Part shown: positions 1 to 6,000 of the stretch, in pieces
Position numbering within the stretch: position 1 is the stretch's first letter
How the letters are laid out: every line of letters begins with the position of its first letter
Source of the DNA: a virus
Taxonomy: Duplodnaviria; Heunggongvirae; Uroviricota; Caudoviricetes
Strand: one strand, 5' to 3'
Length of the DNA: 44,077 bases
Virus record (IMG/VR): IMGVR_UViG_2537561936_000014
Coordinates: 1 to 44,077 of that record
Program-made: the position numbers

Positions 1-3000
1 ATGCCAGATCAAAAAGAAAGTGAGAACACCAAACTCACTTGTGAAGAACAAAAGGATAATGAACTGGTTTCTCGAGTAATCGAAAATCCAGAGGTCTTAA
101 ACAGAGTTTTGGATAGTCCGCAGGTGCGGGCTATTGTTTGCCAGCATTTTCAGGGGCCTGTTCCGCCACCTTCAATGCTTAAAAAGTATGATCAACTGGT
201 GCCTGGGCTTGCAAATCGACTTGTTGAATTGACCGAAAAAGAGCAGGCTCATCGCCATAAAACAGTGGCTGATAGCATTGATATTGCCAGAGATGGTCAA
301 ACAAAGGCTTTTTGGTTGGCAATATTGATCATATTAGCTGCCACTGTCTTTGGCGTCATGGGGGAGACAGTTCTTGCCGGAACTCTCGTTTCAATAGATC
401 TTGTTGCATTGGTTACGGCATTTATTGTTGGAAAACATTATTCTAAGCAGGAACCTGATCAAGATTAGTCTCTGAACCCCGGTTGATGCCGGGGTTTTTA
501 CATCAGCAAAGCAATATCAACATTTTTATCGGTTGTTAATTACTGGCAACGTTACAGCTGTATTTATTTCGTCAAACAACCAATTTAACCCATTCCTGAC
601 CTCGAGTATCGTTATAGCGATCGGTGGTTGCCTGGACTTTATGCCCCAGTAATGTTTTTGTATCGACCCCCTGTGCCCGGTACAGCCGTTCTGACAGGGA
701 ACGTTGTTCATGAAATGTTGGTGGTGTTTTTCCTGCTGGTGGAGTTATTCCTGCCAGATCCCGCGCTTTAGCAAAGTAGTCGCTCAGGTTATCTTTACTC
801 ATTGGTTTTGGTTGTTTCTGGTGCCGACTATGAATCAGGTATGGACTCAATATTCTGTCCCTGCATCCATTAATCACTTCTTTTAGCGATATCCCAATGG
901 CATCACAGCGTAGCGTAAGCGGTAACGCCAGACGCATTCCGGTTTTCCCTTGGGTGATATGCAGGTGTTCGTTCCACACATCTGAAAAACGCATGTGGCA
1001 AATGTCATCACGGCGCTGACCAGTAACAATCGCAAGAAGCATTGCGTTACGGATAAAGTGTTTTTCTGGCGTTGCATTATAAATTTTTTGCCAGTCTTCC
1101 AGGGTGAGTCTGGCTCTGCTTACTTTAGGGATCGGTTTGCGGGTGGCCTCCGGAGGATTCCATCCAGGAGGAACTTCCCCTGCATGCTGTGCTTCTTTAT
1201 AAATATCAACCCATAATCCGCGATTTACTCTCGCTGTACTGACCATGTCTTTATCCAGCCACTCATCCAGTATTAATGCAAAGTCTCTTACTTCCAGTTC
1301 TTTCAATGGATGGTTTCCCAGACGGGAAACCAGGAATGCAGCCATTCGCGCTTTTTCTTTGTGGGTTGTAGCTGCAATATCTCCATTTTTCAGTCGCGCG
1401 TCCTGTATTTTCAGATATCGATCAACCCATGCCTTTAATCTGATGCCCCGACGTTTTGTTGCTGACGGACTTTCATCAATTTTGCGCATGAAATATTCAG
1501 CTTCTGCTGCAGCTATTCGCTGATTGGCTGTGGAAGCGATTTTTTCTGCTTTGCCTTTGTCTGTTCCGAGACCGTGAAATTTTCCAGTCACAGGGTTTTT
1601 ATACTGGTAGTAAACCCTGCCAGTTCTGCGATCAAACTTTTCGTAAAGACCGGCTACGTCAGTGCTGTTTTTTCGTGGCCTCGGTGACATGAGTTAAAAT
1701 CTCCTTCAGTGCATCATCATCGCCAGTATGAATTTCCGGCGCAATTCCCGTTTCACCTGGTCCAACAAATACTGCCCGGCGATCTATCAGCCAACGCCCA
1801 CGAATTTTTTGTGGTCTTGGAACGATGTATCCAAGTTTTCCGTATTTCACCAAGGTAGTGTTTGTTATTGGGAGGCTGAACCGTTTAGGTTTCCACTCGT
1901 CGAGCGTTATCAGGTATTGTTCGCTCATGGCTATCACTCCGGAACGCGCCAGTTGCAGAATACCAACGACAACTGGCGACGGTTGAACATTAAAAATCAG
2001 CCTGACTCGGGATCAGTTTTTGCCAGATAGCTGAAACGTATTTTGCCTGGTGACGGGCGTCATCAAGTGCATTATGGCGCTCACCTTCGAATGGAATAGC
2101 CGTTCTGGCATCGAAGTCTATGGCTTTCCCCAGCTCAACGATTGTGCGTACATCGCGATCGTTGTAGTAACGCCACGGGCAGGGGATCCCCTGCCGTTCG
2201 TATGAACGGCGCAAAATCGTGTTGTCGAAGTTGGCTCCATTTCCCCAGACCTGAACAAAAAATTCACCGGAGTTTTCGTCGATAAATTCCCGCAATTGTA
2301 ACAGTGCATCATCTAACGGGATTTCATCGGTCATAATGGCAGATTGCGCCTCGCGTGATTGCTTAAGCCACCATTTAATGGTGTCACGATCAATGACTCC
2401 GCCAGCAGTTTCCAGATCGATAGTCTTACTAAATTCCGGTCCCATATCTCCGGTTTGCGGATCGAAAAATATTGCACCTATTGAGATAATCGGGGCATCA
2501 GGATTTTTTCCCATGGTTTCAAGGTCGATCATTAGATGGTCACACGTCCTGCTGGTGGATGTGATAACGCGATGACCGTTCACCGTAATTAAGGGATCTG
2601 CCGTCTCGCCAGTTTCACTATCGCTGGCGTGATCCTGAGCGCTGCCAGCATTCTCCTTGTGTGGGTGTTCAGCGCCTTCCATTTTCTCCGAATCGTCTTC
2701 CTGAACTTCAACCTGGTTCTTGTCATCGAATGTTTCCTGGTATGTTGCGTCGCCCATCACCGCACCACAATCAGGGCAGTTGCCACCACCGCTCTGACCG
2801 CAGGCGGTGCAGATTTTTTCCGGTTCCTGTTGCACTACTGGTTCAGGTTGTTTCGTTTCTGGCTCGTTTTGTTGCGTATTTGGGCTGTTTTGTTCCGCTT
2901 TCTGGTCGTTCTGTTCCGTTTCTTGCTGGTTCTGGTTCACAGTATCGCGGGTCTGGATCCCCTTAACCCATTTCGGATCATTCGGGTCGCTAATCCCTTC

Positions 3001-6000
3001 AATAAATTCACCACGTGATGCAGCAAGCAACTTATCGGCGTCAGGCTGGCTGATATTGGCTGCCTGCATAATTTTGTTTACTTCGTCAGCGGTAACTTTT
3101 ACCGGTTCTGGCTGTGCGGTCGTGTCAGATGCACCAGTATTTTGTTGTGAACCTGAGTATGTACTGTTTTTGCGGGCGAAATATTCTTCTTTCGTGATTT
3201 CAGTAGCCCCGGCAGCCAGCGCCTTATCCAGACCAGAAAGTTTGTTTGCGCGACCGTATTTTTCGCCATCCTTGTCGGTGAAGAGGAAGTAGAACGGCCC
3301 CTCACGCTCTACAGATGGTTCGACTTCCACTTTGCATTCGGTTTTTTCGTTGTCCGGAATTGCCGTTTCCACAGCATCAGTTTCTGGTACTGGCGACGAG
3401 AGAGTATCAGTTGCGCTCTGATTTGTTCCTTCATCTTCAAACATGCCCTTTGTAGTCAGGTATTCAGTAATGTATTTGTTCAGTGCCACAGGATCTTTGT
3501 GAATGTCGATCGGACGTTCACGGACAAGGCCAAAAATAGTCTGGCGGTCGTAGCGAAGGGCATCAGGCTGTTTGCGCATCGATGCCGAGATACGCTTCCA
3601 GTCTTCGCGGTCGTTGTCGATAACTTCATTTTTTGCCCAGCGATGGATGCTGCCGTCAATGTTTCCGGCATCCACATCCCCAGGCCAGAGAGCGTAGGCC
3701 AGTTCGTCATCCAGTGTTTTCCATGTCTGCTTGTATTCGCGATGAGTGGCAGCAATGACCGGGTTGATTTTTCCTGTTGAATTTTCAGTGTTCTGTTGAT
3801 TGGCTCTGGCGCGGGCGAGATCAACAACAGACGTGTATTTTCCGGTTTCCTTGCGTTCACCTTCGCGACGTTTTTTCCAGATGCGCATCTCTGCCTGAAT
3901 TTCGGGCCATTTGGCACCAGGCTTACATTTATGCTTAACCCACCCGATGGCATGCAGCTTAAGTTCCGGATACATGGCGTTAACTTCTGGCATTTTCATC
4001 AACGCTTCAACGATATGTCCGTCGAATGTTGCCATGTCTTCCTGCAACAATTCCTGCGCGCTAATCACCATATCAACGGTGATGTTTTCACATGTGTCGA
4101 ACTTAACCATGACAGCGTTCTGTACTTCAGGGGCCAGCTTGTCAAAAGTGACGTTCATCGGATCTGATTCAGTCTCAACCGGGACAAAGGAAGCAGACTC
4201 CTCATCCCAGCGGTTTTCCTGCATATATTCGGTATCCCAGGAGTCGATAGCAGGGCGGGGCATGCCGGGTTTATCCTCGCAGACAAGAAATTTATAAGCG
4301 CAGTCCTGAGCAGCCGGATATTGCTCCAGGAATTGCCAGGTAAATTTGGCACGGGCGCGGCGCTCGTCACCGGCTTCAATGGCAGTGGCTACAGCAACTG
4401 CACCTTCTTCCTTTATTGCCTGTTCGTCCGGAATGGCGGCGCAAATAAAGACTTTACTCATTTTGTTTTAACCTCATGACAGATTTAAGGATGAACAAAT
4501 CCCTGCCATTGCTGGCATATAAGAATCAAATCTGATGTATTCATTAAGCTGAATGTCGTATTGTGGCAGTTATTTTATTACTGCTCACCATGACTCTGCT
4601 TTTACAGGTAAACCATCACGACCAAGGAAGACTTTAATCATGGTTTCCTTAATACAGTGTTGTGTGGAAAAATCACGAATATAGAGCCGTTGTTTTTTAA
4701 TGTTGTTTACCGAAGCAATATATGTTCTTCCTTTATGAATAACATAATCACCGGGAGTCACGCACTGACGAGGAATCTCATCAGTTCCGAAGTGATGAGC
4801 AATCATAATTATCTCCATTTTTACAAATGAACTTTGTTGATGCGGTGCCTGGTGCCTCCAGGTGACGTTAACCAGTTAACAATTAACGCCGGATACAGAG
4901 AACCCACCCATAACACTGTTTTTGGTTTTAACTGTTCCGCGTGCGCTTAGCCGCATTCACCGCATCACAAAATTCACTTTAAAAAGGGCGGCAGAGCAGT
5001 CACGGAGTAAACTGATACCGCCAAACGCCACCAGAAAATTGATAACAGAGGGCGTTGTAGCGGGGTTGTCACTTAAGCGTATGGTCAACCTGACAACCCG
5101 GTGTCCTCAACGGGGAAGGAATAACCCCGCCATACTTACCGCCGCGCCATTTCGCGGATTGCCACAACCGGAAGCGCACGGTCGAATTAAATTTAACGAC
5201 ACCGTACAGTGAGACGAACTTCGCCGTGCGCTTTCGCGTTATGCCCTGACTTTTCAGGAAAATGCCCTTTCAGTAAACTGTCAGTGCCGGATGCTCACCC
5301 GTGTCCGGCGCACGCACTCCACCTGACCCGTGGAGAACTCCTTAATTACCAACCCTCAGGAGGGTGAAATGACTAGTAAAAATGTAAATATCCAGTTTAA
5401 CCACGATGTTTCTCCTGCTGGACTTGCGGATGAGCTCACTGCTATAAAAACGGCAATTATGCTACTTGCTGCTAAGTTGCCTGCGTCATCAAAGCCAGCG
5501 GAAATTTGTGACTCATTGCGTAAGATGAATTCAACAAAATGCAATGAGATGGCATCACTTATTGAAAGTGCAATTGATTTTAATGATTAATCGAAATTTC
5601 ATGGCTAACTGTAACACTCCCATCTGTGGCGGGATGGTTTAAATCGCTGGGATTAATGCCGCACTCAGTAAAATGGTTCTTAAGGGGTTCTATCCGAATC
5701 CCTTTCTTTTTCATTAACAAGCCAAACCCCTTATCAATGATATCCATTAATGCCAGGAAGTATTTTTCATGTAAATCCTGGTTATCAGAGAGCTGCTTCT
5801 CTTCGTACAGACCGATAAAGGCACGACGCACGTTACCGGATATAGTATCGATGGTTTCTTTTTCTACGGTACTCAGGTCAAGAGTCGCCAGTTGGGAACG
5901 AACTATATTCGCTGCCATTTCCTGGAATTGCATTGGTAAATCTTTAAATTCCATTATTAGCCTCGTTGGTTAGCTATTAACGCGGGTATGTAATCATTCT

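What the first reader, a model, noticed from the sequence alone, without database searches (positions are those of the whole stretch)
1990..4461. Large exonuclease fusion with no adjacent single-strand annealing partner
The C-terminal 200 aa carry clear DEDDh 3'-5' exonuclease motifs. The roughly 600-aa N-terminal region, the low-complexity Q/E-rich linker and the CxxC...CxxC element are unexplained. No RecT, Erf or Red-beta-like annealase is evident next to it, unlike canonical phage recombination exonuclease pairs.
Basis: partly seen in the sequence, partly recalled or inferred. Interest (0 to 1): 0.45.

Follow-up and report, generated by a model that had tools for sequence, protein, structure and literature searches.

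The report
RecE-scaffold exonuclease with swapped nuclease domain
This is a very common, already catalogued E. coli prophage gene in which the non-catalytic front part of the RecE recombination nuclease carries a DnaQ-type 3'-5' exonuclease in place of RecE's own nuclease, so the missing annealing partner is expected rather than odd.

Summary
Window 1990-4461 (-) is one 823-aa ORF with an intact DEDDh 3'-5' exonuclease at aa 642-813, a Q/E-rich disordered linker, a CxxC-x7-CxxC element, and no annealase anywhere in the 44-kb window.

The N-terminal ~620 aa are not unexplained in origin. They are the non-catalytic RecE/YdfE scaffold. They are 94% identical to a 900-aa E. coli protein that continues into a PD-(D/E)XK nuclease followed by RecT. 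They also match K-12 RecE up to residue 592, including the zinc-ribbon motif. DNA homology to recE-type genes stops at window 2588-2594 (aa ~623). So a DEDDh cassette stands where nuclease, recT, ralR and DUF1187 stand in relatives, directly upstream of xis-int.

The gene is the last long gene of a DicF/kil-type early-left operon and the intact counterpart of the K-12 Qin pseudogene ydfE. It occurs in 3533 of 5426 complete E. coli genomes and in isolated phages. Casjens, Smith and colleagues (2025) already noted DnaQ-type nuclease genes near int in lambdoid phages.

Its function is untested. My best guess is a DNA-end-trimming 3'-5' exonuclease working with host RecBCD/RecA. The scaffold's role is unknown. 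The finding is ordinary and of low novelty.

The parts
1990..4461 (-). 823-aa gene: RecE/YdfE-type scaffold fused to a DEDDh 3'-5' exonuclease
   Evidence: ORF. phrog_2082 matched over 1-823/823. The exact protein is in NCBI (ENC36120.1 and others), in a 90% cluster of 23,183 members. At least 80% of the gene is present in 3533/5426 complete E. coli genomes.
3847..4461 (-). aa 1-205: confident alpha/beta plus helical domain (Pfam YdfE_N type)
3442..3729 (-). aa 245-340: helical domain shared with K-12 RecE (aa ~278-337) (Pfam YdfE_C type)
   Evidence: AF2 pLDDT 90-96. BLASTP to RecE. NCBIfam PRK09709 aligns aa 238-626 to model positions 261-603.
3166..3309 (-). aa 385-432: small beta-hairpin/helix domain, absent from K-12 RecE
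   Evidence: AF2 pLDDT 91-96. It recurs as a separate module in distant homologues. It falls in a gapped part of the alignment with K-12 RecE.
2962..3099 (-). aa 455-500: helical segment (DADKLLAASRGEF...DPNDPKWVKGI), closely similar to RecE 461-481
2824..2958 (-). aa 502-546: Q/E/N-rich disordered linker
   Evidence: 80-97% polar residues in 30-aa windows. pLDDT 36-50. It is 14 aa longer than in K-12 RecE.
2767..2811 (-). aa 551-565: CxxC-x7-CxxC zinc-ribbon-like element, conserved in K-12 RecE
   Evidence: It aligns with RecE [15 protein letters not shown]. Pfam DZR matches only at E 0.12. It is present in only 5 of 49 long family representatives.
2596..2760 (-). aa 568-622: acidic disordered linker ending in ETGETADPLI
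   Evidence: pLDDT 32-45. It aligns with RecE 536-592.
2588..2594 (.). mosaic junction: DNA homology to recE-type genes ends here (aa ~623)
   Evidence: blastn against L003 and L004, and megablast query ranges starting at 2588-2631. The protein alignments with RecE, P0021 and the L004 protein all stop at aa 626.
2023..2538 (-). aa 642-813: DEDDh (DnaQ/DexA/Rv2179c-like) 3'-5' exonuclease domain
1659..1937 (-). excisionase, 53 bp downstream of the exonuclease stop
   Evidence: phrog_629. The exo-xis spacing is 53 or 74 bp in 43 of 44 IMG/VR loci.
572..1690 (-). tyrosine integrase
   Evidence: phrog_7244 and phrog_1. PGAP annotation of homologues.
4585..4818 (-). kil, the gene immediately upstream in the same operon
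   Evidence: phrog_294.
4986..5036 (-). DicF sRNA gene, marking the operon as dicBF/pL-type
   Evidence: Rfam RF00039, 69.6 bits against a gathering score of 48.
6986..7438 (-). CI/DicA-like repressor at the head of the leftward operon
   Evidence: phrog_5736.

Best explanation
SHOWN. The gene is a domain-swapped member of the RecE (exonuclease VIII)/YdfE family of Rac/Qin-type lambdoid prophages.
- Its first ~623 residues are the non-catalytic RecE scaffold: three confidently folded domains, a weaker helical segment, a zinc-ribbon-like element and three long disordered linkers.
- Where relatives carry a PD-(D/E)XK 5'-3' nuclease, this protein carries a complete DnaQ/DexA-type DEDDh 3'-5' exonuclease.
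- In the genome, this ~600-bp cassette occupies the place held in relatives by the RecE nuclease domain, recT, ralR and a DUF1187 gene. The exonuclease therefore abuts xis-int, and no annealase is present or expected.
- It is the last long gene of a repressor-controlled, pL-like dicBF-type operon (ydfC, DicF, kil, exo, xis, int).

INFERRED.
- It is made on induction or infection and not in the lysogen.
- It acts as a metal-dependent 3'-5' exonuclease on DNA 3' ends. It is brought to its substrate or partner by the same N-terminal scaffold that serves RecE.
- The phage's recombination-dependent growth is supplied by host RecBCD-Chi-RecA, not by a phage exonuclease-annealase pair. The window has 9 Chi sites, 8 of them co-oriented, and no Gam or Abc2 homologue.
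- A plausible specific job is trimming 3' tails so that ends become substrates for RecBCD. This last step is speculation.
For: Identity and swap:
- P0021 (900 aa) is 94% identical over aa 1-626, then has PF12684 PD-(D/E)XK. It is followed by RecT, Lar, DUF1187, Exc and Int.
- The 1045-aa L004 protein is 78% identical over 1-626 and also sits next to RecT.
- K-12 RecE aligns over 278-592, including the CxxC motif.
- An IMG/VR variant (L012) aligns to RecE 50-592 and then switches to the same DEDDh domain.
- The DNA breakpoint is at 2588-2594.
- In the 5.8-billion-protein search, the same N-terminus (91-96% identical) carries either PF16473 or PF12684.

Active enzyme:
- Pfam match, catalytic residues and fold.
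- The DEDDh motifs are intact in 77 of 80 IMG/VR loci at 97-99% identity.
- The gene is present in isolated phages such as Evi, Tritos, mEp460_ev081 and HannyBb.

No annealase, Gam or Abc2:
- In the window.
- Within 7 kb of the DEDDh domain in 80 loci.

Operon:
- DicF, kil and ydfC.
- No promoter excess over shuffled sequence.
- In K-12, ydfE is the last gene of the DicA-repressed, pL-like dicBF operon (PMC10448788; PMC11430063).

Chi:
- 9 sites against 1.38 expected; 0 of 100 shuffles reach 9; 8 sites on the + strand.
- Lambda 27-42 kb and P22 have none.

Literature:
- DnaQ-type nuclease genes near int, and annealase-less Chi-rich lambdoid phages that use RecBCD (PMC12315714).
Against: - Chi richness is not specific to the DEDDh version. 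RecET-bearing relatives are just as Chi-rich, at 0.21 and 0.36 sites per kb against 0.20 here. Chi therefore supports an uninhibited RecBCD but not a link to the swap.
- Zheng et al. note that 3'-5' DnaQ-like exonucleases usually inhibit recombination. They do not count int-proximal DnaQ genes as recombination-module members.
- The scaffold has no informative structural relative, so the 'delivery' role is inferred only from its reuse.
- Expression only on induction is inferred by homology with Qin and not measured.
Confidence: 0.5

Rival explanations
1. Prophage-encoded defence nuclease of the 'HREX' type. In this reading it is a DexA-like exonuclease that degrades the modified (5hmC) DNA of superinfecting T-even phages, as reported for the E. 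coli DexA homologue EcD.
For: - Kang et al. 2025 report that plasmid-borne EcD protects E. coli against T4, and that Escherichia is the commonest genus among bacterial DexA homologues.
- Genes next to int are often accessory genes.
Against: - EcD is a different, stand-alone protein. By its cloning primers it starts MIDTET and ends TIPETY, and the primer sequence is absent from the window.
- DexA D169, which the paper names as key for 5hmC recognition, lies in an insertion missing from this domain. W152 aligns with Tyr766. The tetramer residue D90 aligns with Asp718 and is not lost.
- The gene sits inside the repressed early-left operon and carries a RecE scaffold. That fits a lytic-cycle DNA-transaction role better than a lysogen-expressed defence.
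Confidence: 0.12
2. A 3'-5' exoribonuclease, as for Rv2179c and KapD. It would act on RNA during lytic growth, for example turnover or 3' trimming of the long leftward transcript (including xis-int or DicF processing) or of host RNAs.
For: - The best Pfam family is named for the exoribonuclease Rv2179c, and NCBI names the protein '3'-5' exoribonuclease'.
- The gene lies directly upstream of xis-int and downstream of DicF, in a transcript known to be heavily processed in Qin.
Against: - The only PDB sequence-level hit is the DNase DexA.
- The domain occupies exactly the place of a DNA exonuclease on a scaffold otherwise used for DNA recombination nucleases.
- DEDDh enzymes commonly accept both nucleic acids, so the family name is not evidence of substrate.
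Confidence: 0.12
3. The orphan half of a two-component recombinase. An unrecognised annealase would be encoded by one of the small unknown ORFs of the left arm.
For: Several left-arm ORFs have no assigned function: 5580-5954 (phrog_6937) and 5330-5590 (phrog_7249).
Against: - Annealase partners pair with 5'-3' exonucleases that leave 3' tails. A 3'-5' DEDDh enzyme destroys that substrate.
- The unknown ORFs are 86-124 aa, and none matches any annealase PHROG.
- The same small ORFs also occur in relatives that do have RecT.
- 80 related loci lack RecT, Bet and Erf.
Confidence: 0.04
4. Host-DNA scavenging for nucleotides, as for T4 DexA, or a decaying remnant without function.
For: Homology to DexA. 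Many copies lie in defective prophages, and frameshifted copies exist, for example in E24377A.
Against: - Temperate lambdoid phages are not known to degrade the host chromosome.
- Catalytic motifs are intact in 77/80 loci at 97-99% identity.
- The gene is full length in 3533 genomes and present in plaque-forming phages. This argues for purifying selection.
Confidence: 0.05

Closest known systems
RecE (exonuclease VIII) of the E. coli Rac prophage, with RecT
   Same: - Homologous non-catalytic N-terminal region: window aa 262-626 matches RecE 278-592, and the sister variant L012 matches RecE 50-592. This includes the CxxC-x7-CxxC element and the acidic linker.
- Same place in the early-left operon, between kil and xis-int.
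   Different: - The PD-(D/E)XK 5'-3' dsDNA exonuclease domain is absent and a DEDDh 3'-5' exonuclease stands in its place.
- recT, ralR and rcbA/DUF1187 are absent.
- aa 1-240 belong to the YdfE_N type, not the Pfam Exonuc_VIII (PF06630) type of K-12 RecE.
- The NCBIfam equivalog score is 285 against a cut-off of 1269.
YdfE of the K-12 Qin prophage (pseudogene, last gene of the dicBF operon)
   Same: Pfam names the two N-terminal domains of this family YdfE_N and YdfE_C. The operon context is the same, with ydfC and DicF upstream and int downstream.
   Different: K-12 ydfE is described as a pseudogene lying next to insD7 and intQ. The window gene is intact and shows what the full protein looks like. 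I did not align the two directly.
T4 DexA / M. tuberculosis Rv2179c / B. subtilis KapD (Pfam PF16473, DEDDh)
   Same: Same fold and catalytic pentad. 28% identity to DexA over 166 aa.
   Different: Those are stand-alone proteins of 155-227 aa. This domain hangs on a 620-aa scaffold and lacks the DexA insertions, including the one carrying D169.
DnaQ-type nucleases of lambdoid phages described by Zheng, Casjens, Davidson, Amundsen and Smith 2025
   Same: They report DnaQ-like 3'-5' nuclease genes in lambdoid early-left operons, 'usually encoded very near int'. They also report RecE-related proteins without a nuclease domain ('RecE-2').
   Different: The text I read does not describe the fusion of the RecE scaffold to the DnaQ domain or the cassette boundary. 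Its supplementary tables were not available.
E. coli exonuclease I (SbcB) and exonuclease X
   Different: They are host housekeeping enzymes with other accessory domains, and there is no sequence-level relationship beyond the fold.

Membership tests
DEDDh (DnaQ-like) 3'-5' exonuclease superfamily | Exo I motif D-x-E | tested here: met
   D646 and E648 in MIDLETMG. Aligned with DexA IIDFETMG.
DEDDh (DnaQ-like) 3'-5' exonuclease superfamily | Exo II aspartate and Exo III H-x4-D | tested here: met
   D746 in GANFD; H796 and D801 in RHNALDD. Conserved in 77/80 related loci.
DEDDh (DnaQ-like) 3'-5' exonuclease superfamily | RNase H-like alpha/beta fold | tested here: met
DEDDh (DnaQ-like) 3'-5' exonuclease superfamily | Metal-dependent 3'-5' exonuclease activity | not testable with these tools
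   Needs a nuclease assay.
Pfam PF16473 (Rv2179c-like) | Score above the curated gathering threshold over the whole domain | tested here: met
   228.3 bits against a cut-off of 27, covering profile positions 2-177 of 177.
RecE / exodeoxyribonuclease VIII (NCBIfam NF007259 equivalog) | Full-length match above the curated cut-off | tested here: not met
   284.8 bits against 1269. Only model positions 261-603 of 877 match.
RecE / exodeoxyribonuclease VIII | C-terminal PD-(D/E)XK 5'-3' nuclease domain | tested here: not met
   No Pfam PF12684 hit. tblastn of two RecE-type nuclease domains finds nothing in the window.
RecE / exodeoxyribonuclease VIII | Adjacent recT | tested here: not met
RecE / exodeoxyribonuclease VIII | Non-catalytic N-terminal region | tested here: met
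   Pfam YdfE_N and YdfE_C are found on 91-96% identical proteins.
Two-component phage recombinase (5'-3' exonuclease plus single-strand annealing protein) | 5'-3' exonuclease of the lambda Exo/RecE PD-(D/E)XK type | tested here: not met
   The nuclease is DEDDh. Lambda Exo and the RecE nuclease domains have no hit in the window.
Two-component phage recombinase (5'-3' exonuclease plus single-strand annealing protein) | Annealase gene (RecT/Red-beta, Erf, Sak, Sak4) in the module | tested here: not met
   PHROG scans of the early ORFs. tblastn with RecT (two types), Bet and Erf. Sak and Sak4 were covered only through the PHROG profiles.
HREX (5hmC-recognising DexA-like defence exonuclease, Kang et al. 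2025) | Equivalents of DexA W152 and D169 | tested here: not met
   W152 aligns with Y766. D169 lies in a DexA insertion absent here. This rests on a pairwise alignment at 28% identity, so it is a weak test.
HREX (5hmC-recognising DexA-like defence exonuclease, Kang et al. 2025) | Loss of the tetramer-forming residue D90 | tested here: inconclusive
   D90 aligns with D718 and S87 with P715. A one-residue shift would give A719.
HREX (5hmC-recognising DexA-like defence exonuclease, Kang et al. 2025) | Protection against T4 and selective cleavage of 5hmC DNA | not testable with these tools
   Needs plaque and nuclease assays.
Annealase-less, Chi-rich lambdoid phages that rely on RecBCD (Zheng et al. 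2025) | No annealase and no RecBCD inhibitor | tested here: met
   No RecT, Bet, Erf, Gam or Abc2. GamL and MuGam were not tested by sequence. PHROG scans show none.
Annealase-less, Chi-rich lambdoid phages that rely on RecBCD (Zheng et al. 2025) | Chi sites far above chance and co-oriented | tested here: met
   9 sites against 1.38 expected, 8 on one strand. The density of 0.20 per kb is about that of E. coli and lower than phage LLS at 0.54 per kb. RecET-bearing relatives are equally Chi-rich.

The most novel reading that the evidence does not exclude
The RecE/YdfE N-terminal region is a general nuclease-delivery scaffold that recognises one fixed target, such as a DNA end, RecBCD, SSB or the replisome. 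Phages would plug alternative nuclease cassettes into it. The DEDDh version would then be a phage-encoded 'end-blunting' factor that trims 3' tails so host RecBCD can load and run to the co-oriented Chi sites. That would be a second recombination strategy, alternative to exonuclease-annealase pairs, carried by most E. coli strains. It would also give the first functional handle on the long-unexplained RecE N-terminus, which boosts linear-linear recombineering.
Probability: 0.1. Interest if true: 0.6.

Novelty: already known. Interest (0 to 1): 0.2.

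Why it matters
Practically, it corrects an annotation trap. Many records call this gene 'exodeoxyribonuclease VIII', but it has the opposite polarity and no RecT, so it should not be counted as a RecET system or mined for recombineering.

Biologically, the clean cassette boundary shows that the RecE N-terminal region is an independent, reusable module. The swap falls at RecE residue ~592, after the same 620-aa scaffold at 94% identity. The function of that region is still unknown, although full-length RecE is what makes linear-linear direct cloning efficient.

The gene sits in about two-thirds of complete E. coli genomes, often in several copies. A simple biochemical and genetic characterisation would therefore annotate tens of thousands of database entries. 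None of this is surprising to a phage-genomics specialist.

Tried and rejected

2. Chi density as a specific correlate of the DEDDh swap. Rejected, because RecET-bearing relatives L003 and L004 are equally Chi-rich.

3. Identity with the published anti-T4 'EcD' protein. Rejected from its cloning primers (MIDTET...TIPETY) and the absence of the primer sequence in the window.

4. An own promoter for the gene. The consensus scan gives 9 sites against 10.7 expected, with none convincing upstream of 4461. There is only a weak 5-bp-stem terminator-like site at 4504-4517.

5. An internal start for a stand-alone DEDDh protein at M644. The nearest AGGA is 13 nt upstream, a poor spacing.

6. The zinc ribbon as a family-defining feature. 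Rejected: it is present in only 5 of 49 long representatives, and Pfam DZR matches at E 0.12.

7. The Gifsy-1/RtcR paper (PMC9879122) was read as a possible link and is irrelevant.

8. One literature search was wasted on the prefix match 'rece' = receptor.

9. The supplementary tables of Zheng et al., which would show how they classify phages Evi and mEp460, are not held.

Full report
WHAT IS THERE

Window 1990-4461 holds a single 823-aa ORF on the minus strand. It has a GAGG ribosome-binding site 9 nt before its ATG. It matches PHROG family 2082 ('exonuclease') end to end, 1-823 of 823. The identical protein is already in NCBI (for example ENC36120.1), inside a 90%-identity cluster of 23,183 sequences.

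- Pfam PF16473 (Rv2179c-like DEDDh 3'-5' exonuclease) covers aa 642-813 at E 6.9e-68.
- The catalytic pentad D646, E648, D746, H796, D801 is intact.
- The Q/E-rich stretch (aa 502-546) and a second acidic stretch (aa 568-622) are predicted disordered.
- The CxxC-x7-CxxC element is at C551/C554/C562/C565.

CONTEXT

The window is a Rac/Qin-type lambdoid prophage in prophage orientation. Its gene order is as follows:
- a DUF2335 membrane protein (1-468, +)
- integrase (572-1690, -)
- excisionase (1659-1937, -)
- this gene
- kil (4585-4818, -)
- DicF sRNA (4986-5036, -; Rfam 69.6 bits)
- small unknown ORFs
- ydfC (5977-6195, -)
- a RelE/RelB pair
- a CI/DicA-like repressor (6986-7438, -)
- rightward: cro-like, YdaT/CII-like, O-like, DnaC-like, DUF977, DUF4406, hok/sok, DUF1367, YbcO and Q-like genes, and two tRNAs
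- lysis, terminase, portal, head and contractile-tail genes

The gene is thus the last long gene of a pL-like dicBF-type operon. In K-12 Qin, the corresponding operon (ydfABC-dicF-dicB-ydfD-ydfE) is repressed by DicA, and ydfE is its truncated last gene (PMC10448788; PMC11430063). A consensus scan gives no sign of a separate promoter.

THE N-TERMINAL 620 RESIDUES ARE THE RecE SCAFFOLD

Sequence evidence:
- NCBIfam's exodeoxyribonuclease VIII model aligns aa 238-626 to model positions 261-603 of 877, far below its cut-off.
- BLASTP to K-12 RecE aligns aa 262-626 with RecE 278-592. The match is close from aa ~470 onward and includes [28 protein letters not shown].
- A 1045-aa E. coli protein with a PD-(D/E)XK C-terminus is 78% identical over aa 1-626.
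- A 900-aa protein, P0021, is 94% identical over aa 1-626 and then diverges completely into a RecE-type nuclease.
- On its contig, P0021 is followed by RecT, Lar/RalR, DUF1187, excisionase and integrase. Pfam labels its N-terminal domains YdfE_N (PF27430) and YdfE_C (PF27432).
- The same two Pfam families are precomputed on all close homologues of the window protein. They are missing from the local Pfam copy, which is why one search shows nothing there.

DNA evidence: similarity between the window and recE-type genes ends at 2588-2594, which is aa ~623. To the left of that point (DEDDh segment, xis, int) there is no similarity to those loci.

A second IMG/VR variant (L012, 812 aa) aligns with RecE 50-592 and then carries the same DEDDh domain. 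So the swap point is the same for different scaffold versions. It coincides with the boundary of the RecE nuclease domain; the review PMC11611040 gives the nuclease domain as residues 564-866.

STRUCTURE OF THE SCAFFOLD

AF2 was run with a 40-sequence alignment of distant homologues. It gives three confident domains (aa 1-205, 245-340 and 385-432, pLDDT above 90), a weaker helical segment (455-500), a poorly defined zinc ribbon and long disordered linkers.

The family is narrow: 255 clusters at E <= 0.001 among 1.84 billion representatives. It is itself modular. The four segments occur in different combinations. They are joined to a DEDDh domain, to either of two PD-(D/E)XK types, or to C-termini with no recognisable domain. 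The last group is probably the 'RecE-2' proteins of Zheng et al.. The zinc ribbon is present in only 5 of 49 long representatives.

NO ANNEALASE, AND WHY THAT IS EXPECTED

PHROG scans of every sizeable ORF in the early-left and early-right regions, and of the minus-strand ORFs in the late region, show no annealase family.

tblastn with RecT (two types), lambda Bet, P22 Erf, lambda Exo, Gam, Abc2, RalR, RcbA and two RecE nuclease domains finds nothing in the whole window. It also finds nothing within 7 kb of the DEDDh domain in 80 IMG/VR loci. In those loci the DEDDh domain is 97-99% identical. Its motifs are intact in 77 of 80. Its stop codon lies 53 or 74 bp from xis in 43 of 44 cases.

The arrangement is therefore a stable, conserved alternative to recE-recT-ralR and not a degraded pair. 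A 3'-5' exonuclease is also the wrong polarity for an annealase partner.

Zheng, Casjens, Davidson, Amundsen and Smith (2025) already report three relevant points:
- DnaQ-like nucleases occur in lambdoid early-left operons, often 'very near int'.
- Many lambdoid (pro)phages lack annealases (134 of 275 in Bobay 2013).
- Such phages tend to be Chi-rich and use RecBCD.

The window has 9 Chi sites against 1.38 expected, 8 on one strand. Lambda and P22 have none. As a control, RecET-bearing relatives are equally Chi-rich. Chi therefore speaks for an uninhibited RecBCD in this phage group in general, not for a consequence of the swap.

HOW IT PROBABLY WORKS

Shown: it is an intact DEDDh exonuclease on a RecE scaffold, in the repressed leftward operon, with no annealase.

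Inferred: it is made on induction, removes nucleotides from 3' ends of DNA, and is directed by the scaffold to whatever RecE is directed to. Recombination itself is left to host RecBCD/RecA. Nin-region proteins may help. DUF1367, which PHROG groups with NinB/Orf, and the YbcO nuclease are candidates. Trimming 3' tails to make ends acceptable to RecBCD is a coherent but untested idea.

Rivals:
- An HREX-like defence nuclease. Homology to DexA is real, but the tested EcD is another protein and the proposed 5hmC-recognition residues are not conserved.
- An exoribonuclease, which is what the family name and the NCBI name suggest. Fold cannot discriminate.
- A hidden annealase partner, host-DNA scavenging, or decay. 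All three are unlikely.

NOVELTY AND VERDICT

The gene covers at least 80% of its length in 3533 of 5426 complete E. coli genomes. It is carried by isolated phages such as Evi, Tritos, mEp460_ev081 and HannyBb. It has its own PHROG and Pfam architecture. The presence of DnaQ-type nucleases at this position has been published.

Several phage records call it 'exodeoxyribonuclease VIII'. That name is misleading.

The finding is real but ordinary. The only open questions are the untested substrate and role of the DEDDh domain, and the long-standing unknown function of the RecE/YdfE scaffold. Interest 0.2.

Noticed in passing
window 2551-2558 (+): A Chi site (GCTGGTGG) lies inside the DEDDh-coding segment, 30-37 bp from the mosaic junction at 2588-2594. 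It is conserved at the same place in three other DEDDh-type loci (L001 12562, L005 5524, L002 6580). This may be coincidence. RecBCD-Chi stimulates exchange on the other side of the site (towards xis-int).
   Followed up: partly
window, whole (735, 2551, 8013, 8058, 14887, 15238(-), 18719, 20498, 24254): There are nine Chi sites, 8 on the + strand, against 1.38 expected by shuffling. Lambda (27-42 kb) and P22 have none. RecET-carrying relatives of this phage are equally Chi-rich, so this is a trait of the Rac-like group.
   Followed up: yes
window 4986-5036 (-): A DicF antisense sRNA gene (Rfam RF00039, 69.6 bits) lies between ydfC and kil. No intact dicB ORF was seen in the window; kil takes the place of the cell-division inhibitor.
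   Followed up: partly
window 6494-7019 (-): A RelE/ParE-type toxin and a RelB-type antitoxin sit between ydfC and the CI-like repressor, inside the immunity region. The names come from PGAP annotation of homologous loci; PHROG gives 'unknown function'.
   Followed up: no
window 19344-20783 (+): The 479-aa protein after the large terminase is a portal protein by PHROG (phrog_146, E 1.1e-73). PGAP names its homologues 'anti-CBASS protein Acb1 family protein' in several E. coli genomes, which is probably a misleading name.
   Followed up: partly
window 12200-13101 (+): This is a nin-region pair: DUF1367 (PF07105, E 1.6e-95; PHROG groups it with NinB/Orf recombination mediators, though lambda NinB does not hit it by tblastn), followed by the putative nuclease YbcO (PF07102). 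They are possible recombination accessories in a phage without an annealase.
   Followed up: partly
window 34539-36413 (-) and 35136-35219 (-): A minus-strand island sits inside the tail gene block. It holds an Ant-like anti-repressor (34539-35102), an Rfam 'sRNA-Xcc1' match (78 bits) just upstream of it, and two proteins of unknown function (phrog_26680 and phrog_31333, no Pfam hit).
   Followed up: no
window 11374-11548 (+); 14011-14164 (+): A hok/sok-type locus (Rfam sok, 117.7 bits), and two phage tRNA genes downstream of the Q-like gene (12978-13640) and before the lysis genes: Thr-tgt and Gly-tcc.
   Followed up: no
related proteins P0139, P0143, P0147, P0151, P0192, P0225 (700-790 aa): These distant members of the same scaffold family have 250-400 C-terminal residues with no Pfam domain and no similarity to the DEDDh or PD-(D/E)XK cassettes. 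They may be the 'RecE-2' proteins of Zheng et al., or they may carry further, unrecognised effector domains.
   Followed up: partly
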